Below are positions 28,601 to 31,600 of a DNA stretch of 64,000 nt, piece after piece (position 1 is the first letter of the stretch; every line of letters begins with the position of its first letter). Position numbers: made by a program. The DNA lies in assembly GCA_963765205.1 (NCBI GenBank), contig CAVXVB010000009.1, positions 480,001 to 544,000 of the forward strand, in the 5' to 3' direction. Source of the DNA: an uncultured Verrucomicrobiae bacterium (GTDB taxonomy: Bacteria > Verrucomicrobiota > Verrucomicrobiia > Opitutales > JABDGR01).

Positions 28601-31600
28601 GCAGCGCACGCGGCCCAGTTCGAACATGCACGGTGCGGCGTCGGTGGCGAGGTAGGTTCCCGGCCACGGTTGCATTTCCCGAGTAAACAAGCCCGTGCCC
28701 GCACCGAATTCTACCGCGCGGCCCTGGCGTTCACTGGGCGCAATCCAGCCCGCCAACTCCGCCGCCAGCGCCGCTTGCGGGGCGCTGTGGGCGTCGTAGC
28801 CGGACACCGAGCGGTCGAAATTTTGGATGACATCCATTAGACGGAAGATTGAGAAAACATTTCACGGGCGGCGCGCAGCAAACGGCCGGGCGCGTGACCG
28901 GCGCCGGCCACGACGCGCAGGGCCGGCCACAATTTTTTCAACATGGCAGCATCGGTCAAGGAATCGTCGGTGCCCGCCACGCCCTGCCAATGCGACGGCG
29001 GTGGGGCGGGCGCGCGCAGGGTTTCCAGCCAGCCGAGTTCCTCGTCGAGCGTGGTGATTTCTTCCGCGGTAAACTTGTCGGGTGGCGGAATCGAATCAGC
29101 CAAGCCCGTGCGCCGGAAAAAATCCACCACCGCGGCCGGGGCATCCTGGCGCAAACGCCGGCGTTGCAGACTTAACTGCGCGAGCGCCATGCGTCCGCCG
29201 CAACCTTGCTCGGATGAAAAGGCAAAAATTGGCGCGAGCAAAACCACTGGGGTTTTTTCCGGAATTTTCGTCGCCCGACTGAGCAGCCAAAGCGCGCCTA
29301 AGGAGTATCCGCCAAGGGCGTCATATTCATTTTTCGCCAGCGCGGTGGCGGCGTCCGTTGGGGTCACGGCAGCGTGTTCCGCTTCCGGCCAACCGGCGCG
29401 CGCCCGCGCGGCCAGCCAGTCTGGCGGGACGGCCCAACCGGATATCCACAAAATTTTCATGGTTGGGTGGTGCGGGCGGCACGCCAGGCGTCCATTTCAT
29501 TGAGCAAGGCTTCCAAGTCTTCCCAACGCGTGTTAGCTTTGAGCGACAGGCGCAGGCGCGCCGCGCCAACGGGCACAGTGGGCGGGCGGATGGCGCCGAT
29601 GGCGATGCCGCGTTCGCGCAAATGCGCGCCAAGCGCGACGGTTTCGTGGTCGTCGCCAATCAGCACCGGCACAATCGCGGAGTCGCCCGGCGGCGTGTCC
29701 CACCCGCGCGCACACAGGTGCTCGCGCAGCCTCTGCGATTGCGCACGCCATTGGGTTGATTGGGGCACAAGTGCGCGAACCCGCCCAATCGCAGCGGTGG
29801 CGGCAGCCGCGAGCAGCGGGGAGAGGTAGGTGGAATAAATGAATTCCCCGGCGCGGTTCACAAGGGCTGCACGCAAGGCAGGCTCATGGAAAAGCGAATA
29901 CGCGCCCTGCGCGCCGAGCGTTTTCCCAAGCGTGCCGATAAAAACATCCACTTCGCCGGTGACGCCCGCCTCGGCGGCGCGGCCCTGGCCCTGCGGGCCG
30001 AACCAGCCGAGCGCGTGGGCTTCGTCGAGCATCCAGATGAATCCGTGCCGGCGTTTCATTTCCGCCAGACGCGCCAGGTCGGGGCTGTCGCCATCCATGC
30101 TGAAGACGCTTTCGGTGACGACCCAGCGCGCCGCGCCAGGCCGCGGGTTTTCGCGCAAAAGAATTTCCAATGCATCAAGATCATTATGCGGGAAACGGAT
30201 GAATTTCGCGCCCGATTGCAGGAGTCCGGCGATGAGGCTGTGATGCACCAGCCGGTCGGCAAGAATCAAATCGCCCCGCGTCGCGAGCGTGCCGAGCACG
30301 GCCTGGTTCGCGGCATAGCCGCTATTCCAGACGAGGCCGCAGGGGAATCCGTGCCACGCGCACATGGTTTTTTCAAGGATGACGTGGGCGTCTTGGTAAC
30401 CGCGCACGAGGGGAGAGGAAGCGGCTGACACCGGTCCGTCCTCGAGCGCCGCGCGCACGGCATTTTTTACGGCGTCATCATTCGCCAGATTGAGATAATC
30501 ATTGTCGGCCAGATTGACCCGCACCATCGCGGCCACGCGCAATTCGCGCCGGCGGCCCTGCGCGGCGCGTTCGTTCAAGTCCGCGCGGAGGCGGGCTTGC
30601 AGAAGCGCGGGGGAGTTAGAGGAAGTATGGGAATTAGGGGACATGGCTAAGGGAATGCCCAATGCTTCAGCCATTTAATCAAAGAGGGTTCATGCAGAAG
30701 CGGCTCGATCGCACCCGCAGCCATTTCGCCCCAGAGCGGGACCATGCAAGTATCGAGGGCCGAGCGCGAACTGCCAGCCACATCCGAGGGCGGCCGGGTT
30801 ATGGCATTGAGGAAAATGCCGCAGGGCAGTTTTTTTGGAAATTTTTCCTGGGTATATTTCCAAACCAGCCGCGACTGGTTGATGGCCCCCAGTTCATCCG
30901 CCACGACGAGCACCATCGCGTTGGCGTGAACCTCCTCGGCGAACTCCACCCAATCCCAGCCCTGGGGGCCAAGCGGGACGGCGATGCCGCCGGCGCCTTC
31001 GATCAAGCGGATGTCCACCGGCGGCAAGACAGAAATTTCTTGGATAACTTCGTTGATCTTCAAAAACGCGCCGTCCGCCGCCGCGGCGGACGCCGGAGCC
31101 AGCGCCGCGCGATAACGCCGCAAGGTGTGCGCGCAATCCGGCGGAAGACCCGCCAGTTGGGACGCGATTTCGGCGTCAGTGGGTTCGCGCGGAGCCACCC
31201 CGGTTTGCACCGGTTTGATGATTTGCACCGAGCGGCCGTTGCGCGCCGCGACCCGGGCCAGCGCACCCGTCACCCGCGTCTTGCCGACGCCGGTGCCGGA
31301 GCCGGATACCATAATCGTCACCACGGGATTAACGCGAGTTTGCGGGTTCGCAGGCGGCGGCTTGCAGTTGCCGCGTGGCCTCGGGGTCGAGGGCGTGCAG
31401 GCCGAGGCGGCGGAGGAGTTGGAAATCCTCCTCGGCGGCGGGGTTGGGTGTCGTCAGTAATTTCTCGCCGAGAAAAATCGAATTGGCGCCGGCGAGAAAG
31501 CACAGCGCCTGCGTCTCCGCGCTCATTTCCGTGCGGCCGGCGGAGAGGCGGACGATGGCCTTGGGCAGGGCGAGACGCGCGACTGCGATGATGCGCACGA

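What a model noticed while it worked through the whole genome (the two positions that open the first line are those of the whole stretch)
28837..29460. An unrecognised family of pimeloyl-ACP methyl ester esterase (BioH function) fills the gap in the biotin operon between [...]
g02512 (C9:508837-509460, minus strand, 207 aa) has no match in Pfam, NCBIfam, Swiss-Prot or PDB sequences, yet lies inside the operon bioA-bioB-bioD-bioF-g02512-bioC. The BioC route needs an esterase that removes the methyl group from pimeloyl-ACP methyl ester (BioH, BioG, BioK, BioJ, BioV, BtsA elsewhere) and no gene of those families is called here. I propose that g02512 is that esterase and founds a further, compact (about 200 aa) isoenzyme family with a Ser53-Asp166-His189 triad (G-Y-S-L-G elbow).
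Evidence so far: No family at E<=10 in Pfam or NCBIfam, no PDB sequence at E<=10. Full HMMER scan of 1.84 billion representatives: 215 relatives at E<=0.001, nearly all 190-230 aa. Six longer relatives looked at are fusions with the neighbouring enzymes: 3 with a C-terminal BioC-type methyltransferase (P0361, P0365, P0408), 2 BioF-X (P0388, P0475), 1 BioD-BioF-X (P0457). 25 of 81 Opitutales genomes have the gene; in 9 of 9 loci fetched it sits between bioF and bioC. In an alignment of 42 members G8, W9, S53, G55, D166, H189 are invariant; 15 of 42 touch only the generic Abhydrolase_6 model, 0 of 42 DUF452 (BioG) or another specific family. AlphaFold2 with that alignment: pLDDT 95.9, pTM 0.92; of 350,542 PDB [...]
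(Added by a program. Inside this text positions count along the whole contig: contig position 480,001 is position 1 of the stretch shown here. "Call 12" and the like, gene names such as g00115 and contig names such as C1 are that model's own, and its searches are not shown. The text may have been shortened before it was handed on; [...] marks where a part breaks off. The agent that wrote the report below was given it as the finding of a first reader that could run no searches.)

Follow-up and report, generated by a model that had tools for sequence, protein, structure and literature searches.

The report
Compact BioH-like esterase in biotin operon
A small, unannotated hydrolase gene wedged between bioF and bioC is very probably the missing esterase of this bacterium's biotin pathway, a stripped-down distant cousin of the known enzyme BioH that current annotation libraries fail to recognise.

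Summary
A 207-aa ORF (28837-29460, minus strand) sits in bioA-bioB-bioD-bioF-X-bioC, overlaps bioF by 4 nt and bioC by 1 nt, and matches nothing in Pfam, NCBIfam or PDB sequences at E<=10.

X is most likely the pimeloyl-ACP methyl ester esterase.
- **Gene order:** X lies directly upstream of bioC in 33 of 38 X-bearing genomes of the order. The other four testable genomes have bioF or bioD-bioF directly upstream of X.
- **Exclusivity:** X and BioG never co-occur (0 of 151 order genomes, 0 of 201 phylum genomes).
- **Fusions:** X-BioC, BioF-X and BioD-BioF-X proteins exist.
- **Active site:** S53, D166, H189 and the oxyanion Trp9 are invariant.

The "new family" claim needs trimming.
- The AlphaFold model's four best PDB matches are the four BioH entries (Z 19.0-19.6).
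- Profile-profile comparison ties X to BioH at 97% probability over its full length. That distance lies between BioK-BioH and BioG-BioH.
- X is therefore a compact, remote BioH relative of family rank, not an independent invention.
- It lacks BioH's first 13 residues, has a three-helix lid, and replaces BioH's four ACP-binding arginines with its own conserved basic patch.

There is no assay. Interest is moderate.

The parts
28837..29460 (-). Gene X: 207-aa compact alpha/beta hydrolase, proposed pimeloyl-ACP methyl ester esterase
   Evidence: ORF. No library match. AlphaFold2 pLDDT 96.2. Best folds are BioH. hhalign to the BioH profile 97.3%.
29302..29304 (-). Codon of Ser53, proposed nucleophile in the G-Y-S-L-G elbow
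   Evidence: Invariant in 40 of 40 sequences. Aligned with BioH Ser82. Coordinates computed from the ORF start.
28963..28965 (-). Codon of Asp166, proposed triad acid
   Evidence: Invariant in 40 of 40. Aligned with BioH Asp207.
28894..28896 (-). Codon of His189, proposed triad base (G-H-A-P)
   Evidence: Invariant in 40 of 40. Aligned with BioH His235.
29110..29193 (-). Residues 90-117: first two lid helices carrying the conserved basic patch (R90, R101, R104, R117), proposed ACP docking face
   Evidence: K/R frequency is 90%, 100%, 95% and 68% at these columns. Net charge of residues 90-120 has median +5, against -5 for the rest of the protein. Helices 93-105 and 107-118 are in the model. 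The docking role is inferred.
29457..30674 (-). bioF (8-amino-7-oxononanoate synthase), consumer of pimeloyl-ACP; its stop overlaps the start of X (ATGA)
   Evidence: TIGR00858 at 4.2e-102. Junction read.
28112..28837 (-). bioC (malonyl-ACP O-methyltransferase), which makes the methyl ester that the esterase must remove; its start overlaps the stop of X (TAATG)
   Evidence: TIGR02072 at 1.1e-25 over model positions 1-240, below the curated cut-off. Junction read.
30647..31324 (-). bioD (dethiobiotin synthase)
   Evidence: TIGR00347 at 2.5e-21 and PF13500.
31329..32411 (-). bioB (biotin synthase)
   Evidence: TIGR00433 at 2e-116, over the cut-off.
32408..33835 (-). bioA (adenosylmethionine-8-amino-7-oxononanoate transaminase), first gene of the operon
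   Evidence: TIGR00508 at 8.4e-132, over the cut-off.

Best explanation
Gene X encodes the pimeloyl-ACP methyl ester esterase of a BioC-type biotin pathway.

Proposed pathway:
- BioC methylates malonyl-ACP.
- Two rounds of fatty-acid synthesis give pimeloyl-ACP methyl ester.
- X removes the methyl group with a Ser53-His189-Asp166 triad. The oxyanion hole is proposed to come from the backbone at Trp9 and Leu54.
- BioF then takes the pimeloyl-ACP.

What X is: a minimal alpha/beta hydrolase with six core strands and a three-helix lid. It is a remote relative of BioH at family-level distance, comparable to BioK and BioG. It probably docks the acidic helix II of ACP through a conserved basic patch on its first two lid helices (R90, R101, R104, R117), and not through BioH's four arginines.

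Shown here: the gene, its conservation, its slot in the operon, its exclusivity with BioG, the fusions, the fold, and the remote homology to BioH.

Inferred: the substrate, the ACP docking face, and that X is the only esterase used.
For: **Gene context**
- The operon is bioA-bioB-bioD-bioF-X-bioC, with 4-nt and 1-nt overlaps around X. Published operon-sited bioH, bioG and bioK genes are arranged the same way (PMC3494674, passages read).
- Among 151 genomes of the order, X occurs in 38.
- A full-length BioC match lies directly downstream on the same strand in 33 of those 38. It lies on another contig in 4. One locus is cut by a contig end. These counts were collated by hand.
- In all 4 exceptions, bioF or a bioD-bioF fusion lies directly upstream of X.
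- 11 of 11 further loci show bioD-bioF-X-bioC, one of them cut after X.

**Phyletic pattern**
- Of 55 bioB-positive genomes in the order, 36 have X, 5 have BioG, 0 have both and 14 have neither.
- In a phylum sample of 201 genomes, 25 have X-like matches, 39 have BioG and 0 have both.
- BioH reached its cut-off in 0 of 151 genomes.
- The own genome (92% complete) has no BioG, BioH over cut-off, BioV, BioW or BioK-like gene.

**Fusions**
- 3 X+BioC-type methyltransferase, 1 BioF+X and 1 BioD+BioF+X.

**Active site and fold**
- S53, D166, H189, G8 and W9 are invariant in 40 sequences with median pairwise identity 37%.
- The model has pLDDT 96.2.
- The top four of 1000 realigned PDB chains are the four BioH entries (Z 19.0-19.6, rmsd 2.6-2.8, 201-203 residues aligned). 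The next is an unrelated esterase at Z 18.0.
- 4etw_A is first of 48,161 representative chains.

**Remote homology**
- hhalign of X against the BioH profile: 97.3%, E 2.5e-11, 204 columns, triad in register.
- Five generic hydrolases of the same genome align only 18-40 columns.

**Lid**
- A conserved basic patch sits on the lid. BioH, BioG and BioJ also use lid basic residues for ACP (PMC6733898, passages read).
Against: - There is no assay and no complementation.
- None of BioH's four ACP-contact arginines is conserved at the aligned positions. R138 aligns with A109, R142 with D113, and R155 and R159 fall in a deletion. ACP docking therefore rests only on a charge argument.
- The structural lead of BioH over generic esterases is small: Z 19.0-19.6 against 18.0, and rows under 1 apart count as ties.
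- HMM-level searches see no link to BioH. TIGR01738 gives no hit at E<=10, and the X profile does not find BioH in the E. coli genome at E<=10.
- hhalign E-values are pairwise, not corrected for a database. Only 3 of 5 single BioH sequences scored above 90%.
- Promiscuous esterases can complement bioH loss (title and abstract of PMC6138646), so another hydrolase of the genome could contribute.
- bioC and bioF in the window score below their curated equivalog cut-offs.
- Two X-bearing genomes gave no bioB match: G147 (68% complete) and G121 (99% complete).
- The genomes are kin, so the co-occurrence counts are not independent.
Confidence: 0.8

Rival explanations
1. X is simply a highly diverged orthologue of BioH and belongs in the BioH family proper. 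The finding is then only a sensitivity gap of the HMM libraries, not a further isoenzyme family. The function is the same as in the best explanation.
For: - BioH is the best structural match: all four BioH entries come first.
- BioH is also the best profile match: 97.3% over the full length, score 79.0.
- Motifs are shared in register: S-G-W-A with H-G-W-G, G-Y-S-L-G with G-W-S-L-G, A-P-I-F with S-S-P-C-F, and G-H-A-P with A-H-A-P.
Against: - No BioH model reaches X at E<=10, and the X profile misses E. coli BioH.
- X lacks BioH residues 1-13, has a shorter lid with an 8-residue deletion, and does not keep the four ACP arginines.
- The X-BioH score (79.0) lies between BioK-BioH (102.2) and BioG-BioH (64.8). 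Both BioK and BioG are treated in the literature as separate families (PMC3494674).
Confidence: 0.15
2. X acts on the thioester rather than the methyl ester. It would be a pimeloyl-ACP thioesterase or an acyl-transfer helper for BioF, and the methyl ester would be removed by another hydrolase of the genome.
For: - Alpha/beta hydrolases include type II thioesterases. Two appear among the structural matches: 6vap_B (Z 13.1) and 5ugz_B (Z 13.5).
- BioF-X and BioD-BioF-X fusions tie X to BioF as much as to BioC.
- In 4 genomes X stays with bioF while bioC lies elsewhere.
Against: - Thioesterases rank far below BioH.
- No BioW-type ligase exists in the genome to re-activate free pimelate.
- X-BioC fusions exist.
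- X and BioG, a proven methyl esterase, exclude each other.
- BioF-esterase adjacency with overlap is normal for bioH, bioG and bioK (PMC3494674, Table 3 passage).
Confidence: 0.05
3. X is a hydrolase with a role unrelated to pimelate synthesis that merely hitch-hikes in the operon. The esterase step would be done by a promiscuous housekeeping hydrolase.
For: - The genome holds several other alpha/beta hydrolases with weak BioH-model matches (7 matches, best 50 bits).
- Promiscuous esterases can complement bioH (abstract of PMC6138646).
Against: - Slot conservation holds across families of the order and into Nitrospinota-labelled members.
- Gene fusions with three different bio enzymes exist.
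- X shows strict exclusivity with BioG.
- None of these patterns is expected for a passenger gene.
Confidence: 0.04

Closest known systems
BioH (E. coli-type pimeloyl-ACP methyl ester esterase; TIGR01738; PDB 1M33, 4ETW, 4NMW, 6K5E)
   Same: - Alpha/beta hydrolase with a Ser-Asp-His triad, aligned residue for residue: S53/S82, D166/D207, H189/H235.
- The Trp of the H-G-W-G-type motif aligns (W9/W22). The P-x-F motif after strand 6 and the G/A-H-A-P motif are shared.
- BioH is the best structural match (Z 19.0-19.6, about 202 of 207 residues, rmsd 2.6-2.8) and the best profile match (97.3%).
- When bioH lies in an operon it occupies the same slot, between bioF and bioC (PMC3494674).
   Different: - 207 aa against 256 aa.
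- X starts at BioH residue 14-15, so the N-terminal hairpin is missing.
- The lid has three helices (residues 93-147 of the model), with an 8-residue deletion relative to BioH. BioH has four helices, K121-T185 (PMC6733898).
- R138, R142, R155 and R159 are not conserved; a different basic patch is.
- Identity is 17-20%. No HMM-level match in either direction.
BioK (cyanobacterial esterase; Shapiro, Chakravartty and Cronan 2012, PMC3494674)
   Same: - Compact size (227-237 aa in the three I extracted).
- Sits between bioF and bioC with overlaps.
- No dedicated Pfam or NCBIfam model.
- Remote profile similarity to X: 95.1% over 141 columns, from the nucleophile to the His.
   Different: - The elbow is x-H-S-x-G, not G-Y-S-L-G.
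- BioK is closer to BioH (score 102.2) than X is to either.
- The X profile finds nothing at E<=10 in 5 cyanobacterial genomes. The three BioK genes that I extracted come from three of those five, and a fourth also gave a BioK match later.
- The BioK profile finds nothing at E<=1 in the window's genome.
BioG (PF04301/DUF452; PDB 5GNG)
   Same: - Same size class (about 215 aa), with a small lid.
- Same slot upstream of bioC, and fusions with BioC exist.
- BioG is the alternative that replaces X in one family of the same order and elsewhere in the phylum.
   Different: - PF04301 matches 0 of 40 members.
- Structural match is only Z 13.9, rank 22.
- hhalign 66.2%, score 37.8.
- BioG has the atypical fold in which helices are replaced by loops (PMC6733898, passage).
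Unnamed esterase of the reduced-genome family f3 of the same order
   Same: - About 200-217 aa, with no Pfam family.
- Sits between bioF and bioC.
   Different: - Motifs are H-G-F-G-F and G-H-S-L-G.
- It is closer to BioK (97.9%) and BioH (97.3%) than to X (89.6% over 113 columns).

Membership tests
BioH (TIGR01738 / PRK10349) | Scores over the curated cut-off of the equivalog model | tested here: not met
   No NCBIfam hit at E<=10 for X. 1 of 40 members touches PRK10349 at E 0.11. The X profile does not find bioH in E. coli K-12 at E<=10.
BioH (TIGR01738 / PRK10349) | Ser82-Asp207-His235 triad and Trp22 of the H-G-W-G motif in an alpha/beta hydrolase fold | tested here: met
   hhalign puts S53, D166, H189 and W9 on these residues. 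All are invariant. Fold match Z 19.0-19.6. The oxyanion role of Trp22 is recalled, not checked in a paper.
BioH (TIGR01738 / PRK10349) | Full-length architecture: N-terminal strands before the H-G-W-G strand and a four-helix lid K121-T185 | tested here: not met
   Structural and profile alignments begin at BioH residue 14-15. The model has three lid helices. There is an 8-residue deletion in the lid. The BioH lid is as described in PMC6733898.
BioH (TIGR01738 / PRK10349) | ACP-contacting Arg138, Arg142, Arg155, Arg159 | tested here: not met
   The aligned positions are A109, D113 and a deletion. Another conserved basic patch exists at 90, 101, 104 and 117.
BioH (TIGR01738 / PRK10349) | Detectable common ancestry by profile-profile comparison | tested here: met
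   97.3%, E 2.5e-11 (pairwise), 204 columns. Five generic hydrolases as controls align 18-40 columns.
BioG (PF04301) | Match to PF04301 over 27 bits | tested here: not met
   0 of 40 members at E<=1. No match in the own genome. The model does ring in 5 other genomes of the order.
BioG (PF04301) | Atypical fold of 5GNG | tested here: inconclusive
   5gng_A: Z 13.9, rmsd 3.3, 189 residues aligned, rank 22. hhalign 66.2%.
BioK | Sequence similarity to the cyanobacterial proteins shown to complement bioH | tested here: inconclusive
   No library model exists. My profile of 30 BioK sequences against X gives 95.1% over 141 columns. There is no HMM-level match either way. The P. marinus MIT9211 and Synechococcus CC9902 proteins themselves were not at hand; I used their positional equivalents from other strains.
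BioV (NF033854) | Match to the equivalog model | tested here: not met
   1 of 40 members at E 0.11. There was no match in the genome, but the control rang nowhere, so that genome search shows little.
BioJ, BtsA, mycobacterial BioH1-3 | Sequence or fold similarity to the characterised proteins | tested here: inconclusive
   BioH3 7wwf_B appears at Foldseek rank 41 (E 6.6e-07, TMq 0.52). BioJ and BtsA structures are not among the rows shown. No sequences of them were at hand.
Pimeloyl-ACP methyl ester esterase (functional class) | [quoted passage not shown] | not testable with these tools
   Needs bench work.
Pimeloyl-ACP methyl ester esterase (functional class) | Gene directly upstream of, and overlapping, bioC, co-inherited with the BioC route | tested here: met
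   1-nt overlap in the window. 33 of 38 genomes have bioC directly downstream, and all 37 not cut by a contig end hold a full-length BioC match.

The most novel reading that the evidence does not exclude
X is an uncharacterised isoenzyme family of the biotin 'gatekeeper' esterase, of the same rank as BioG and BioK.

- It would be the smallest BioH-type alpha/beta hydrolase known.
- It recognises ACP through a basic patch that arose independently of BioH's four arginines.
- It is the sole esterase of the BioC route in about a quarter of Opitutales-type genomes and in marine Nitrospinota.
- Its natural fusions to BioF and BioD-BioF would hand pimeloyl-ACP directly from the esterase to the next enzyme.
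- Together with the second unnamed type in the reduced genomes, it would show that the slot between bioF and bioC has been refilled at least three times within one bacterial order.
Probability: 0.6. Interest if true: 0.55.

Novelty: new variant of a known kind. Interest (0 to 1): 0.45.

Why it matters
Without a recognised esterase, automatic reconstructions score these organisms as having a gap in biotin synthesis. This bears on predictions of vitamin auxotrophy and cross-feeding in soil, gut-associated and marine communities.

The affected groups seen here are:
- 38 of 151 sampled genomes of this verrucomicrobial order;
- Nitrospinota-labelled marine proteins, one cluster of which has 217 members.

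A family model built from the alignment would close that gap.

For enzymology, X offers a minimal scaffold of 207 residues for asking two questions: what is really needed to recognise pimeloyl-ACP methyl ester, and how ACP docking surfaces are re-invented.

It does not change the known logic of the pathway. The esterase step is already known as the 'wild card' of biotin synthesis (PMC3494674).

Tried and rejected
- **Family search in genome contigs.** The search for related loci with the 40-sequence alignment failed because no stretch was conserved enough. I spent the single scan of that collection on a cyanobacterial 16S primer instead, to reach BioK-bearing genomes.
- **BioH diversity, first attempt.** The search for homologous proteins with E. 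coli BioH listed only enterobacterial proteins of 81-98% identity among its best 120. That was useless for a diverse profile. I rebuilt the BioH set from a class-wide genome sample.
- **E. coli as search centre.** I used a genome reached through the primer scan instead.
- **MenH control family.** TIGR03695 gave 1 match in 91 genomes, so no control profile could be built. I used five single generic hydrolases of the own genome instead, which is a weaker control.
- **X profile against PDB sequences.** Only noise at E>=0.15.
- **Protein Atlas.** It gave leads only: cyanobacterial clusters at 0.96 and BioG clusters at 0.95. These prompted the BioK test.
- **Earlier findings of this scan.** None for this sequence.
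- **Regulatory signals.**
  - Three promoter-like matches were found on the operon strand (shuffles mean 1.0, sd 1.0). One lies inside X at 28932-28959; the other two lie just downstream of bioC, before the next gene. None was followed up.
  - None was found upstream of bioA. Terminator-like sites were no more frequent than in shuffles.
  - The only inverted repeats upstream of bioA were two short GC-rich ones. No BirA operator is claimed.
- **Complex prediction of X with ACP.** Not run. The tool's own guidance says enzyme-carrier pairs rarely give a usable answer.
- **Literature.**
  - Five searches found no paper describing this family: on the esterase, on Verrucomicrobia with bioC and bioH, and on the BioH arginines.
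  - The library holds open-licence papers and preprints only. The 2016 BioG structure paper and the 2012 BioH-ACP paper are not in it; I know them through citations in PMC6733898.
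Full report
**The observation.** The window holds a 207-aa ORF on the minus strand at 28837-29460. 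The genes around it on the same strand are:
- bioA at 32408-33835
- bioB at 31329-32411
- bioD at 30647-31324
- bioF at 29457-30674
- bioC at 28112-28837

These were assigned by Pfam and NCBIfam. bioA and bioB pass their curated cut-offs. bioD, bioF and bioC match along their whole length but score below the equivalog cut-offs.

The start of X overlaps the bioF stop (ATGA). Its stop overlaps the bioC start (TAATG).

X has no Pfam or NCBIfam family at E<=10 and no PDB sequence at E<=10. A profile of 40 relatives finds only noise among PDB sequences.

**The family.** A word-indexed search found 91 clusters of 157-239 aa. All that carry a name are called 'hypothetical protein'.
- A profile search of 1.84 billion representatives found 737 proteins at E<=0.001, 270 at <=1e-10 and 159 at <=1e-30.
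- In 40 aligned members (median pairwise identity 37%), 19 columns are invariant. They include G8, W9, Y52-S53-L54-G55, D166 and H189.
- Named members come from Opitutales, Opitutaceae, Cephaloticoccus and Verrucomicrobia. A 209-aa subgroup comes from Nitrospinaceae and Nitrospinae.
- Only 1 of 40 members touches a generic Pfam hydrolase model, and none touches BioG. NCBIfam gives only noise.

**Gene context and distribution.** I searched 151 genomes sampled from the order.
- X occurs in 38.
- BioG occurs in 5, all in one family (f2), where X is 0 of 7.
- BioH over its cut-off occurs in 0.
- bioB occurs in 55.

Of the 55 bioB-positive genomes, 36 have X, 5 have BioG, none has both and 14 have neither. 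Two X-bearing genomes gave no bioB match: G147 (68% complete) and G121 (99% complete).

I collated the coordinates by hand.
- A full-length BioC match lies directly downstream of X on the same strand in 33 of 38 genomes.
- It lies on another contig in 4.
- One locus ends at a contig edge.
- In all 4 exceptions the gene directly upstream of X is bioF or a bioD-bioF fusion.
- Eleven further loci all read bioD-bioF-X-bioC, one of them cut after X.

In a phylum sample of 201 genomes:
- Strong X matches (E<=1e-33) occur in 11, all of the same order.
- Fourteen weak partial matches occur elsewhere.
- BioG occurs in 39.
- No genome has both.

These genomes are kin, so the counts describe a pattern and are not a statistical test.

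**Fusions.** Among the longer profile hits:
- Three are X followed by a BioC-type methyltransferase domain.
- One is BioF-X.
- One is BioD-BioF-X.

Sources name these proteins after the partner domain only.

**Other routes in the genome.** The genome (4.02 Mb, 12 contigs, 92% complete) gave:
- no BioG;
- only sub-threshold BioH-model matches to generic hydrolases, best 50 bits against a cut-off of 207;
- no BioV (although that control rang nowhere);
- no BioW;
- no BioK-like gene.

**Structure.** AlphaFold2 with the alignment gives pLDDT 96.2 and pTM 0.92. The model has six core strands and three lid helices at 93-105, 107-118 and 132-147.
- Foldseek ranks three BioH entries first (4nmw at 2.5e-10, 4etw_A, 1m33).
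- An aligner that does not depend on Foldseek puts 4etw_A first of 48,161 chains (Z 19.0, rmsd 2.8, 203 residues, 19% identity). An unrelated esterase follows at Z 18.0. BioG 5gng_A is at rank 22 with Z 13.9.
- On realigning Foldseek's best 1000 chains, the four BioH entries take ranks 1-4 (Z 19.6, 19.2, 19.1, 19.0).

The lead over generic esterases is consistent but small. All alignments start at BioH residue 14, so X lacks the N-terminal part of BioH.

- I reached cyanobacterial genomes through a 16S primer scan.
- I located bioC there and read the gene between bioF and bioC.
- A profile of it rings in 81 of 81 genomes of that cyanobacterial order.

I then built three profiles:
- 30 BioK sequences;
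- 30 BioH sequences, from a class-wide sample in which 33 of 91 genomes pass the cut-off;
- 35 BioG sequences.

One BioK locus was dropped for an in-frame stop.

hhalign gave these results:

| Pair | Score | Probability | Columns |
|---|---|---|---|
| X-BioH | 79.0 | 97.3% | 204 |
| X-BioK | 59.1 | 95.1% | 141 |
| X-BioG | 37.8 | 66.2% | 184 |
| BioH-BioK | 102.2 | 98.3% | 227 |
| BioH-BioG | 64.8 | 96.0% | 201 |
| BioK-BioG | 28.0 | 12.1% | 172 |

BioH is the hub, and X is one more spoke. It lies farther from BioH than BioK does and nearer than BioG does.

With E. coli BioH as the reference row, X 2-203 aligns with BioH 15-254. The pairings are W9 with W22, S53 with S82, D166 with D207 and H189 with H235.

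As a control, the X profile was run against five generic hydrolases of the same genome. It aligned only 18-40 columns, four of the five at the nucleophile elbow (probability 0.5-36%). Three of five single true BioH sequences gave 91-97% over 154-182 columns. At the HMM-to-sequence level nothing links X to BioH.

**ACP docking.** BioH binds ACP helix II through R138, R142, R155 and R159 of its lid. BioG and BioJ use other basic lid residues (PMC6733898, passages read).
- In X the aligned positions are A109 and D113, and the last two arginines fall in an 8-residue deletion.
- The X family has its own conserved basic positions: 90 (K/R in 90%), 101 (100%), 104 (95%), 117 (68%) and 97 (62%).
- Residues 90-120 carry a median net charge of +5. 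The rest of the protein carries -5.
- That this patch docks ACP is an inference.

**Verdict.** The claim of a new family holds in the sense that no model or annotation covers it, and that it is as far from BioH as the accepted families BioK and BioG. It is nevertheless a remote BioH-type hydrolase and not an unrelated invention.

The statement that BioG lacks a structure is wrong. The step is known to be filled by many non-orthologous hydrolases (PMC3494674), so a specialist would be interested but not astonished.

**Papers.**
- PMC3494674 and PMC6733898: passages found by term search.
- PMC6138646, PMC9302846, PMC7026016, PMC4751477 and PMC5438404: titles and abstract openings in the search listings only.
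- No supplements were opened.

Noticed in passing
L273:2369-3001(+), L274:2372-3025(+), L275:3206-3805(-), L276:3092-3715(-): Genomes of family f3 of the same order (0.8-1.0 Mb) carry a different unannotated hydrolase of about 200-217 aa in the same slot (bioF-[gene]-bioC, followed by bioD where the downstream gene was read). Its motifs are H-G-F-G-F and G-H-S-L-G, and it has no Pfam family. By hhalign it is nearer to BioK (97.9%) and BioH (97.3%) than to X (89.6%). In L277 the corresponding ORF is only 114 aa and may be decayed.
   Followed up: partly
L149:2255-2959(-), L150:770-1453(+), L152:696-1409(+): The cyanobacterial esterase BioK has been shown experimentally since 2012, yet it has no dedicated Pfam or NCBIfam model. 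A three-sequence profile finds it in 81 of 81 genomes of its order. It is as much an annotation gap as X.
   Followed up: partly
L020-L024 (G068, G043, G130, G002, G148): In family f2 of the order, the BioG and BioC matches lie next to each other. In G043, G002 and G148 both matches report the same open frame (481, 473 and 461 aa), which suggests BioG-BioC fusions like the one described for Bacteroides fragilis. In G068 and G130 the open frames around BioG are longer still (738 and 766 aa).
   Followed up: no
G121:C10:126284-127613: A 99%-complete genome has X and an adjacent full-length bioC but gave no bioB match at E<=1e-40. Either its bioB is divergent or missing, or the pair is kept for another reason.
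   Followed up: no
G094:C14:135538-136188; G115, G018, G030, G142, G102: In G094 the X match is split into two pieces. In five other genomes the match includes one stop codon. These may be frameshifts, decaying copies, or matches that run past the gene start into the overlapping bioF stop.
   Followed up: no
L009-L014 against window 28837-30674: In genomes labelled same genus or same family, X is only 56-60% identical to the window's X. bioF is 68-73% identical and bioC 55-60%. X and bioC evolve faster than bioF.
   Followed up: no
window 23419-28148, minus strand: Directly downstream of bioC lie four long ORFs on the same strand: 26967-28148, 26009-27022, 25476-26012 and 23419-25923. By eye they resemble a cell-shape cluster of the mreB, mreC, mreD and penicillin-binding-protein type. 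This reading rests on recalled motifs; no family search was run. Two promoter-like matches lie just after bioC at 28000-28073.
   Followed up: no
window 33954-35546, minus strand: Upstream of bioA lies a 530-aa ORF whose second half repeats a motif ending in G-T-L-G-G about every 45 residues. Its family and real start were not examined.
   Followed up: no
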